NCBI GenBank assembly: GCA_050613775.1
Contig: JBODTK010000139.1
Location: 372,001-436,000, forward strand
Length of the DNA: 64,000 nucleotides
Source of the DNA: Neocallimastix sp. 'constans'
Lineage: Eukaryota
Direction: 5' to 3'
Below the pieces are notes generated by a model. That model was not told the origin of the DNA, did no database searches, and saw nothing but the letters and a program-made list of their open reading frames with translations. A program made the translations under genes and the position numbers. Below, one piece after another: positions 190 to 1,620 of this stretch. The stretch's first letter is position 1. Every line of letters starts with the position of its first letter.

Positions 190-1620
190 ATGTCTGAAAG
201 TGATAAAAGAGATTTAGAAGCCAAAGGTTTCTACAAACTTTCTTGGGTTCAAAGATTCGGTTTTGCTTCTGGTGATTTAGCCCAAAATTTAATTTATCAA
301 ACCGTTGCCTCTCAACTTATGTTCTTCTGTACTGATGTTTACATTTTAGGTGGTGATAGAAGTAAGGCTGCTGGTATTGCATCTACTTTAATGTTAATCG
401 TTCGTTTTGTTGATATGGTTTGGGATCCAATTGTTGGTGCTTTCATTGATAAGCATCACCCACGTTGGGGTAAATACCGTTCCTACTTAATTATCGGTGG
501 TATTCCTTTAACCGTCTTCTCCGCTCTTACCTTCTGGAATAAATTTGCTCCATCCGTTCCATACATCTACATTACCTACATCTTATTATCTTTATCTTAC
601 ACTTTAGTTAATGTTCCATATGGTGCTATTAACTCTTCTTTAACTAGAGATAATGATGAAATTACCATGCTTACTTCTCTTCGTATGTGGTGTGCTAACA
701 TTGGTTGTTTCTTCGTATACACCTTACTTTTCCTTTTCATTGCTATTGTTGGTGGTACCCCAATTCCATGGGATATGATTCTCTTCAACTTATTCGGTAA
801 CATTCCAAATCTCTGCATTGTTCCATTTATGCCAGCTATTAAGAATTTAATTGGTAAGAAGAATATGTTCTACGTTTTCTTAACCGTTGCTGTCTGTGGT
901 AATGCTATTTTATACGTCGCTAGTAGAATGAATGCTAATGACTGGTGGTACCGTATTGGTAACTTAATTAAATCCACTGGTGTTTGTGTTGCTACCGGTT
1001 ACCAATGGGCTCTTGTTCCAGAAGTTATTTCTTACGGTGAATGGAAGACTGGTCGTAGAATTTCCGCTATTGTTAACGCTATTACTGGTTTATTCTTCAA
1101 GGCCGGTTTTGCTTTAGGTGGTGCTATTCCAGGTTGGATTATTCAAGCTTCTGGATATGTTTCCCCACCAGCTGGTGAAAGTACTTTACCAAAGGATCCA
1201 ATGGCTTGGTTCACTACTTTATCTATTTACTTTGTCATCGGTTTCATCATTCTTATCTTCTGTTTCACTCAAACTAAGGAACGTGTTGTCATGGAAGAAG
1301 GTCAAACCAATTCCGTCAAGGTTAGTGATTTCTGGACTGAATTCGCTCGTAACCCACCACTTGTTGTCGTCTCCCTCTTCTTCATTGTTTCCTTCGTTAT
1401 GCAAAACATTAGTAACACCTCTAACAACTACTTAATGAACGATCTTTACAAGCAAAAGGCCTCTGCTCAAGAAGCTATTCGTTGGACTGTCTGTGTCATC
1501 CCAGCTATTCTTGCTATCGTTTGTATGATTATTATTTCCAGATACAGTTTAACCGATGAAAAGATTGAAAAGATCAACAAGGAAATCGAAGAAAGAAATG
1601 CCGTTAAGGACAGTGCTTAA
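190..1620 (+). CDS. MFS transporter, GPH (glycoside-pentoside-hexuronide:cation symporter) family, bacterial-like, intronless, with apparently permuted helix order
   Basis: 476-aa ORF with about 12 hydrophobic segments. GPH motifs present: GDLAQNLIYQ, RFVDMVWDPIVGAFID..RWGKYR, NVPYGA..LT, PEVISYGEWKTGRR, TKERV. Confidence 0.9.
   Translation: MSESDKRDLEAKGFYKLSWVQRFGFASGDLAQNLIYQTVASQLMFFCTDVYILGGDRSKAAGIASTLMLIVRFVDMVWDPIVGAFIDKHHPRWGKYRSYLIIGGIPLTVFSALTFWNKFAPSVPYIYITYILLSLSYTLVNVPYGAINSSLTRDNDEITMLTSLRMWCANIGCFFVYTLLFLFIAIVGGTPIPWDMILFNLFGNIPNLCIVPFMPAIKNLIGKKNMFYVFLTVAVCGNAILYVASRMNANDWWYRIGNLIKSTGVCVATGYQWALVPEVISYGEWKTGRRISAIVNAITGLFFKAGFALGGAIPGWIIQASGYVSPPAGESTLPKDPMAWFTTLSIYFVIGFIILIFCFTQTKERVVMEEGQTNSVKVSDFWTEFARNPPLVVVSLFFIVSFVMQNISNTSNNYLMNDLYKQKASAQEAIRWTVCVIPAILAIVCMIIISRYSLTDEKIEKINKEIEERNAVKDSA

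What the first reader, a model, noticed from the sequence alone, without database searches (positions are those of the whole stretch)
190..1620. MFS/GPH transporter with a non-circularly permuted helix order (TM1-5, 8-11, 6-7, 12)
Seen: the block WFTTLSIYFVIG..CFTQTKERVV..KVSDFWTEFARNPPL..NISNTSNNY (about 1204-1440; TKER at aa 362) lies after PEVISYGEWKTGRRIS (aa 277) and FFKAGFALGG, and TM5 runs directly into GNIP..PAIK..GKK. Known: in MelB/GPH proteins the KER motif follows TM6 in the central cytoplasmic loop, well before the TM10-11 E..E.K.G.R loop. Inference: the TM6-loop-TM7 hairpin was cut out and reinserted between TM11 and TM12. All three new junctions fall in external loops, so topology is preserved, and the ORF is intact with normal codon usage. 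This would be a natural helix-rewired MFS carrier in which the two 6-helix bundles are interleaved in sequence. The comparison rests on my recollection of bacterial homologues.
Basis: partly seen in the sequence, partly recalled or inferred. Interest (0 to 1): 0.88.

Follow-up and report, generated by a model that had tools for sequence, protein, structure and literature searches.

The report
Sugar transporter with reordered membrane helices
This gut-fungus gene encodes a sugar transporter whose twelve membrane helices run 1-5, 8-11, 6-7, 12 instead of 1-12, a natural rewiring that many gut Prevotella bacteria share, that the fungus likely took from them, and that is predicted to keep the normal fold and likely imports xylan sugars.

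Summary
Confirmed. ORF 190-1620 (476 aa) is a GPH/MFS_2 carrier whose TM6-loop-TM7 block lies after TM11. It matches canonical relatives in out-of-order pieces of 48-67% identity. Its AlphaFold model superposes on MelB over 356 residues (2.8 A), against 443 for a canonical relative; the missing part is about the size of the moved block. Contigs of other runs bridge all three junctions, so it is no misassembly. The rewiring is not fungal. It is common in Prevotella/Segatella, where permuted and canonical alleles occupy the same slot of one xylan operon under purifying selection. Fungal copies nest among rumen Prevotella alleles in two of three maximum-likelihood trees, so a bacterium-to-fungus transfer is likely; Neocallimastix holds many near-identical copies. 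Four 14-helix forms are canonical/permuted chimeras, not ancestral relics. Transport and the placement of the moved hairpin are inferred, not measured. Ten literature searches found no description. This scan noted the same order before in a bacterium (e1-9714986). New variant of a known kind; interest 0.8.

The parts
190..1620 (+). Intact ORF, 476 aa permuted GPH/MFS_2 transporter (P0001)
   Evidence: identical or 98-99.6% identical proteins annotated in Neocallimastix
229..753 (+). Block A, TM1-TM5 (aa 14-188); holds D75, D79, Y137, T138, R165, equal to MelB D55, D59, Y120, T121, R149
754..777 (+). New junction 1: short outside loop joining TM5 directly to TM8 (aa 189-196)
   Evidence: bridged by contigs of 4 of 4 runs
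778..1149 (+). Block C, TM8-TM11 (aa 197-320), with the PEVISYGE..TGRR loop and K304 (MelB K377)
1150..1194 (+). New junction 2: outside linker of about 16 residues from TM11 to TM6, made of half the old 11-12 loop and half the old 5-6 loop (LPKDP.AWF)
   Evidence: (pLDDT 66-80); bridged by contig 1125-1285 of run X16
1195..1443 (+). Block B, the moved TM6 - central cytoplasmic loop (KER) - TM7 hairpin (aa 336-418)
1444..1464 (+). New junction 3: short outside loop joining TM7 to TM12 (aa 419-425)
   Evidence: bridged by contigs of X3, X9, X16 and X15
1465..1620 (+). Block D, TM12 and C-terminal cytoplasmic helix (aa 426-476), stop codon

Best explanation
It is an intact GPH-type carrier with its TM6-loop-TM7 hairpin encoded between TM11 and TM12, predicted to fold into the ordinary 12-helix MFS shape with only three outside loops re-connected, likely a cation-coupled xylo-oligosaccharide importer, and likely acquired by gut fungi from rumen Prevotella. 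Shown: the order, its spread in Bacteroidaceae/Prevotella genomes, its place in the xylan operon, purifying selection, and conservation of the binding-site residues of the canonical subfamily. Predicted: TM1-5, 8-11 and 12 sit in MelB's positions. Inferred: TM6 and TM7 fill their own two empty slots, so each mobile bundle is now built from non-consecutive sequence (TM1-5 + TM6; TM8-11 + TM7 + TM12) and the chain crosses between the bundles three times (TM5-8 and TM11-6 outside, TM6-7 inside) instead of once; the rocker-switch still works because TM5/TM8 stay in contact during the cycle and the TM11-TM6 linker is long. Inferred history: one origin in the Prevotella xylan-operon carrier, spread by whole-gene replacement between conserved flanks, one transfer to Neocallimastigomycota, then copy expansion.
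For: Order. Model: pLDDT 85.9, pTM 0.86, 12 long helices. VIA vs MelB 7l16: 356 aligned, 2.8 A, Z 27.7, model 16-475 on chain 2-454; canonical control 443 aligned, 2.6 A, Z 43.3. Order-bound Foldseek: TM 0.44, rmsd 14.7 A against TM 0.85, 3.1 A for the control. Spread: 77 of 401 genomes of the family sample match a permuted protein full length in one piece (21 at 69-85%, 56 at 42-46%), and 30 of 30 such loci fetched are permuted; a cultured strain has it (WP_091900203.1). Same slot: S. copri L036 (canonical) and L205, L223, L224 (permuted, on 3.3-4.0 Mb contigs) share GH67-HTCS-GDSL esterase-[carrier]-GH10-GH43, with GH10 and GH43 96-98% identical, while carrier DNA is 66-79% alike and its two inner pieces are swapped. 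GH43 lies beside 38 of 38 permuted and 64 of 65 canonical loci, GH10 beside 28 and 38 (loci of 12 kb or more only, 103 of 160). dN/dS 0.02-0.05 in 8 of 9 permuted pairs; 38 of the 40 fungal differences listed are third-position (79 more not shown). D75, W78, D79, Y137, T138, N141, R165, K304 and KER are shared by canonical and permuted rows. Fungal-type rows nest among rumen permuted alleles (98*, 99*). One clade of 22 permuted rows is not rejected (p-AU 0.65, lnL 5.5 higher). Passages: XynD imports xylan products in P. bryantii (PMC8002723); an MFS carrier is the only transporter of Prevotella clone I7 growing on xylo-oligosaccharides (PMC8990778); TM5/TM8 contacts move little (PMC4889909).
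Against: No transport, topology or structure experiment exists. No model coordinates were available and VIA left the moved block unaligned, so its position is inferred from the empty slots and its pLDDT of 86-96. In one search the fungal rows left the Prevotella clade and joined two long branches (distant permuted clade and Leuconostoc P0249; support 87). In some searches and the free tree canonical Segatella rows sit among permuted rows, and the single-block trees are mosaic, so a single origin is not proven. MelB D19, N58, D124 and W128 are N, W, N and G in the whole subfamily, so the coupling ion is open. The fungal gene has no xylan neighbour nearer than a GH11 gene 47 kb away. Two diverged fungal-type proteins (P0241, P0252) have lost several site residues. 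One pair gave dN/dS 0.35 over the whole frame, though dN is 0 in both inner blocks.
Confidence: 0.8

Rival explanations
1. The order is an assembly or gene-model artefact.
For: Chimeric and internally deleted records of this family exist: four singleton 14-helix proteins, P0314, and two Neocallimastix models with in-frame gaps (P0003, P0004).
Against: Contigs from independent runs bridge all three junctions and none of 8 runs shows a joint to canonical order. 13 of 13 listed cluster relatives are permuted. The same order with near-constant junction lengths is in more than 200 bacterial and fungal sequences, including megabase contigs.
Confidence: 0.01
2. The order is real but the moved hairpin does not return to its own slots: it trades places with TM12, hangs outside a 10-helix core, or is swapped between two chains of a dimer.
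For: TM6 and TM12 are symmetry mates (established MFS knowledge), and TM11 now leads into TM6 as it led into TM12. The TM11-TM6 linker has the lowest internal pLDDT (66-80). The hairpin was not superposed.
Against: The superposition runs to model residue 475 on MelB residue 454, so block D holds the TM12 slot. Block B is as conserved as in canonical proteins (about 54% to both) with dN/dS near 0.03. pTM is 0.86 for the single chain. A dimer was not modelled.
Confidence: 0.1
3. The bacterial permuted allele imports xylo-oligosaccharides, but the fungal copies have moved to another sugar or to sensing.
For: The fungal branch is long (0.52, 1.23); TM7 reads MQNISNTSNNY against MMSVGNAAGAY in bacteria; the gene is outside any operon.
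Against: All site residues of the subfamily are kept in P0001; the family is intact, multi-copy and under purifying selection in a xylan-degrading fungus.
Confidence: 0.2
4. The permutation arose through a 14-helix stage (TM6-7 present twice) that survives in nature, or arose more than once (the distant 42-46% clade separately).
For: Four full 14-helix proteins (P0008, P0071, P0157, P0189) and a diverged fragment with both joins (P0285) exist. The distant permuted clade does not group with the other permuted rows.
Against: Each 14-helix protein is a canonical 5' half plus a 3' half close to a present-day permuted allele: P0008 is 99-100% to canonical alleles in blocks A and B and its 3' part matches P0423 letter for letter by inspection; the others pair with L127, L123 and L191. 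All are singleton clusters on 3-6 kb contigs. No match spanned P0157 in 401 genomes (150 of 186 matches listed, best first). The distant clade has the same three junction positions, the LP.DP.AWF join and the same operon slot. A lost 14-helix ancestor remains possible.
Confidence: 0.2

Closest known systems
GPH cation symporters (TCDB 2.A.2; Pfam MFS_2 PF13347; TIGR00792), type structure MelB of Salmonella (7l16, 9old)
   Same: Homologous over all 12 helices; ten helices superpose at 2.8 A; D55, D59, Y120, T121, R149, K377 equivalents kept (roles from passages of PMC4026327).
   Different: TM6-7 encoded after TM11, so the two bundles are not six consecutive helices each; D19, N58, D124, W128 replaced, as in the canonical subfamily.
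Bacteroidetes xylan-operon inner-membrane carriers (P. bryantii XynD, B. ovatus BACOVA_04388; passages of PMC8002723), here the canonical alleles L036, P0122
   Same: 48-67% identity piece by piece, same operon slot beside GH10, GH43 and an HTCS regulator. The named proteins themselves were not fetched; the link is by operon layout.
   Different: Canonical helix order in L036 and P0122; permuted in the window protein and in many sister alleles. The order in XynD and BACOVA_04388 was not checked.
'Mix-and-match' helix-triplet idea for MFS evolution (Madej and Kaback 2013) and its rebuttal (Vastermark and Saier 2014), seen only as summarised and cited in PMC4889909
   Same: Both concern intragenic rearrangement of MFS helices.
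   Different: That idea rests on remote comparisons of three-helix repeats and is disputed. Here a two-helix hairpin that spans the domain boundary is moved between relatives 50-80% identical, with both states living at one locus.
Leuconostoc 'xyloside transporter XynT' (P0249; name)
   Same: 35-59% identity in pieces.
   Different: Canonical order.

Membership tests
GPH symporter family (homology) | Score above the curated cut-offs of MFS_2 and TIGR00792 | tested here: met
   254 bits vs 27; 269.7 vs 231.35; both in 4 stretches
GPH symporter family (homology) | Twelve membrane helices, both ends inside | tested here: met
   Twelve long helices in the model; the loops assigned to the inside carry 1-6 K/R each and keep their canonical helix pairs; predicted, not measured
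GPH symporter family (homology) | MFS fold closest to MelB | tested here: met
   Top four VIA rows are MelB, Z 27.6-27.8, 2.7-2.8 A over 355-358 residues; moved block not aligned
GPH symporter family (homology) | MelB cation site D55, N58, D59, T121, D124 | tested here: inconclusive
   D75, D79, T138 kept; N58 is W and D124 is N in permuted and canonical rows alike
GPH symporter family (homology) | Cation-coupled glycoside uptake | not testable with these tools
   Only operon context and selection
Canonical MFS topology | Two domains of six consecutive helices (wording of PMC13543919, passage seen) | tested here: not met
   Order 1-5, 8-11, 6-7, 12; Foldseek TM 0.44 vs 0.85 for the control. 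Filed as GPH-derived and working like GPH, not as a canonical-topology member.
Circular permutation | One cut, new termini, cyclic order kept | tested here: not met
   Termini unchanged; two inner blocks exchanged, three new joins
14-helix MFS carriers | Two extra helices added to the 12-helix core | tested here: not met
   Window protein has 12 helices and one copy of block B
Bacterium-to-fungus transferred gene | Fungal copies nested inside a bacterial clade, in fungal DNA | tested here: met
   Nested (98*; 99*), not; very AT-rich flanks, copia element, CBM1 xylanase and CotH genes in the window; Neocallimastix records

The most novel reading that the evidence does not exclude
A working MFS carrier with interleaved bundles exists as a living structural polymorphism: canonical and permuted alleles replace each other at one xylan-operon slot among sister Segatella/Prevotella species, recombine into real 14-helix hybrids that allow change in either direction, and the permuted form, whose two new outside cross-links alter gating or oligosaccharide size range, was the one that gut fungi took and amplified as a main hemicellulose-sugar importer.
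Probability: 0.3. Interest if true: 0.9.

Novelty: new variant of a known kind. Interest (0 to 1): 0.8.

Why it matters
A 2026 review still describes MFS carriers as two domains of six consecutive helices with one shared topology (PMC13543919, passages seen), and whether MFS genes ever rearrange helices inside the gene has been disputed (PMC4889909, passage seen). Here is an unambiguous case between close relatives, with a natural matched pair at one locus in cultivable gut bacteria, so the effect of chain connectivity on folding, membrane insertion and alternating access can be tested directly. Annotation hides it: both forms are simply called MFS transporter, and order-bound structure search scores it poorly. 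It is also a candidate eukaryote-adapted xylo-oligosaccharide importer for yeast engineering.

Tried and rejected
Whole-genome copy count: no genome is held for the window; only one copy lies in the window. The 14-helix proteins were first read as the missing duplication intermediate (note) and rejected as chimeras; their DNA could not be fetched, so assembly chimera versus real recombinant is open. Fungal origin of the rearrangement: rejected. Spread beyond the family: a phylum-wide sample of 401 genomes gave 2 genomes with a match, both split canonical-type; not found there with this query, though permuted proteins named Salinivirgaceae and Kiritimatiellae exist. Among 111 sequences of 400 aa or more from the 50%-cluster search plus neighbouring GPH genes, 5 were permuted, all of the same lineage type, 91 showed B before C, and 15 had B undetected, 14 of them with C at canonical spacing: no second kind of permutation seen. 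P0314 (TM5 joined to TM9-11, odd tail) was set aside as a likely broken record. Single-block trees were too short to date events. The tree was distorted by long branches; 31 of 76 rows were left out there and 39 of 76 (long outgroups, the distant clade, redundant rows). Direct placement of TM6-7 in the model could not be read: no coordinates reach the script machine. No complex prediction was run. Expression was not shown: all runs laid are contigs. Literature: ten searches found no paper describing this order; the library lacks most subscription papers and no supplements were read, where tables of transferred genes may list the fungal gene. PMC8154325, PMC9952236 and PMC3463488 held the terms only in reference lists.

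Full report
What is there. Window 190-1620 is one intact frame of 476 aa between very AT-rich flanks. The window is anaerobic gut fungus DNA: the protein's 90% cluster is annotated in Neocallimastix, and the window holds CotH genes, a copia element and a multi-GH11 xylanase with CBM1. Pfam MFS_2 and TIGR00792 (GPH symporter) pass their cut-offs but in four stretches. I split the protein into A (aa 14-188, TM1-5), C (197-325, TM8-11), B (336-418, TM6-loop-TM7) and D (426-470, TM12). Against four canonical proteins the pieces fall out of order; against S. copri L036, aa 333-417 match 183-267 while aa 198-340 match 279-422. Block B scores 250 against canonical TM6-7 and at shuffle level against the rest, so internal symmetry does not explain it.

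Not an artefact. Contigs of 4 of 4 runs bridge the first join; X16 bridges the second and X3, X9, X16 the third; none of the 8 runs laid shows a joint to canonical order. The five joints are forward skips or a replaced stretch at depth 4-17. These contigs are alleles or relatives at 85-99%, and they cannot show expression. Thirteen of 13 listed members of the cluster are permuted and 97.7-99.6% identical to the window protein; accession lists show many copies in Neocallimastix. Five short AT-rich-flanked contigs (L119, L124, L137, L138, L145), likely gut-fungal transcripts, encode more distant permuted relatives.

It is a bacterial invention. The best 120 hits of the first search are 56-60% identical, apart from three fungal ones, and nearly all permuted. 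A second search with a canonical-order query returned the canonical sister group. Of 239 proteins, 118 are ACBD, 114 ABCD, 4 ABCBD and 3 partial; 80 of 80 named genome loci fetched with that query are ABCD, and 76 of 80 metagenome loci fetched with a permuted profile are ACBD, the other 4 cut by contig ends. These counts follow the queries and are not frequencies. In an even sample of 401 genomes of the family, 134 match: 21 full length at 69-85%, 56 full length at 42-46%, and 57 only in split pieces; 30 of 30 full-length loci fetched are permuted. In a genus sample of 401 genomes, 32 of the 150 listed matches are permuted-type (36 not listed). A cultured strain, Prevotella aff. ruminicola Tc2-24, has it. 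One genome bin carries both forms (G1100).

Both forms hold the same post. S. copri 1A8_2 (L036, canonical) and L205, L223, L224 (permuted, on 3.3-4.0 Mb contigs) share the order GH67, HTCS regulator, GDSL esterase, carrier, GH10, GH43. GH10 and GH43 are 96-98% identical in protein; at DNA level the flanks are mostly 81-98% alike, the carrier only 66-79%, with its two inner pieces exchanged. That is the mark of whole-gene replacement between conserved flanks (inference). Across loci of 12 kb or more (103 of 160), GH43 neighbours 38 of 38 permuted and 64 of 65 canonical carriers, GH10 28 and 38. The distant permuted clade also lies beside GH43 in 4 of 4 loci. This layout is the one described for P. 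bryantii xynA/xynB/xynD/xynR, where XynD imports xylan products (PMC8002723, passages), and a Prevotella clone with an MFS carrier as sole transporter grows on xylo-oligosaccharides (PMC8990778, passages); I could not check the helix order of those proteins. Permuted alleles are under purifying selection: dN/dS 0.02-0.05 in 8 of 9 pairs; the ninth gave 0.35 on a frame that included upstream sequence, with dN 0 in blocks B and C. In the fungus 38 of 40 listed differences are at third codon positions (counted from the table, 79 more not shown).

Predicted structure. AlphaFold on 117 permuted sequences gives pLDDT 85.9, pTM 0.86 and twelve long helices. VIA aligns 356 residues to MelB 7l16 at 2.8 A, from model 16 to 475 on chain 2 to 454. 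A canonical relative folded the same way aligns over 443 residues at 2.6 A. The difference, 87 residues, is about block B. Foldseek, bound to sequence order, gives TM 0.44 and 14.7 A against 0.85 and 3.1 A. So TM1-5, 8-11 and 12 are predicted in their usual places, and TM12 has not traded slots with TM6. That TM6 and TM7 fill their own empty slots is inferred; I had no coordinates. The joins are clean: every cut is in an outside loop, every cytoplasmic loop keeps its helix pair, and the LPKDP.AWF end of the old 5-6 loop travelled with TM6. Junction lengths vary by only a few residues in over 200 permuted sequences.

How it most likely works. As a rocker-switch symporter like MelB (established knowledge of the family). 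The residues equal to MelB R52, D55, D59, Y120, T121, R149 and K377 (roles from passages of PMC4026327) are kept, and D19, N58, D124 and W128 differ in the same way in permuted and canonical rows, so the binding site was untouched by the move; the coupling ion is open. What changes is connectivity: the bundles are tied on the outside by a short TM5-TM8 loop, between helices whose contacts move little (PMC4889909, passage), and by a linker of about 16 residues from TM11 to TM6. Whether these ties change gating is untested.

History. With blocks put in one order, a FastTree tree split all 54 canonical from all 52 permuted rows by one branch (0.887). Maximum-likelihood trees with outgroups mixed canonical Segatella rows with permuted ones, but a tree holding 22 permuted rows together was not rejected and scored higher (p-AU 0.65). 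The fungal-type rows form one clade inside rumen Prevotella permuted alleles (98*; 99*); they moved to two long branches. I read this as one origin in Prevotella, allele exchange, and one transfer to fungi, with moderate confidence. The four 14-helix proteins looked like a duplication intermediate but are canonical 5' halves joined in block C to present-day permuted 3' halves, are singletons, and were not found in 401 genomes. They are assembly chimeras or recent recombinants.

Against what is known. A 2026 review gives the MFS fold as two domains of six consecutive helices (PMC13543919, passages and section 26). The mix-and-match idea of helix-triplet rearrangement is disputed (PMC4889909, passage; the original papers seen only as cited titles). 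A survey of gut-fungal membrane proteins counts 7 TCDB 2.A.2 carriers in three strains, with no mention of helix order in the passages seen (PMC5168858), and Bacteroidetes are known donors to these fungi (PMC11291939, passages). Ten searches found no description of this order; subscription papers and supplements were not seen.

Verdict. Real, widespread, selected, and apparently undescribed: a non-circular helix permutation in an MFS carrier, with a natural canonical control at the same locus and a transfer into eukaryotes. New variant of a known kind. Interest 0.8; function and the placement of the hairpin still need the tests listed.

Noticed in passing
window 41935-46770: Copia-type retrotransposon with an intact 1419 aa frame (42196-46452) and 255-base terminal repeats 99.6% identical, so a very recent insertion.
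   Followed up: partly
window 48817-54606 (-): 1930 aa frame with five GH11 xylanase stretches, two esterase stretches and a CBM1, built from near-identical internal repeats of 89-98%.
   Followed up: partly
window 34932-35963 (-) and 38691-40214 (-): Two related secreted-looking proteins with weak group XII phospholipase A2-like ends (about at the Pfam cut-off) after cysteine-rich starts.
   Followed up: no
window 19646-21652, 24995-26320, 26458-29490, 60041-60535: Two CotH kinase genes, a glycosyltransferase-2 frame and a cupin DUF985 gene; likely further bacterial acquisitions.
   Followed up: no
window 5840-13550: Tandem array of AT-rich units of about 1.5-1.6 kb, 70-86% alike.
   Followed up: no
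window about 140-165; L124, L137, L145 5' ends: An AAGTTAA-type word just upstream of the start codon in the window and in related fungal-type contigs; seen by eye, not tested against chance.
   Followed up: no
L192-L200, L203, L204, L206, L207; P0244: A distant permuted clade (42-46% to P0027) in 56 of 401 family genomes has lost the D59-equivalent acid (S) and T121 (S), hinting at changed ion coupling.
   Followed up: partly
P0285: A diverged 231 aa fragment with both the canonical TM7-TM8 join and the permuted TM11-TM6 join; a fifth 14-helix-type record.
   Followed up: no
L218 and L219 (G1100): One genome bin carries a diverged canonical copy and a permuted copy; the permuted one is in the xylan operon.
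   Followed up: partly
P0003, P0004: Two public Neocallimastix gene models of this family lack in-frame stretches, likely falsely called introns.
   Followed up: no
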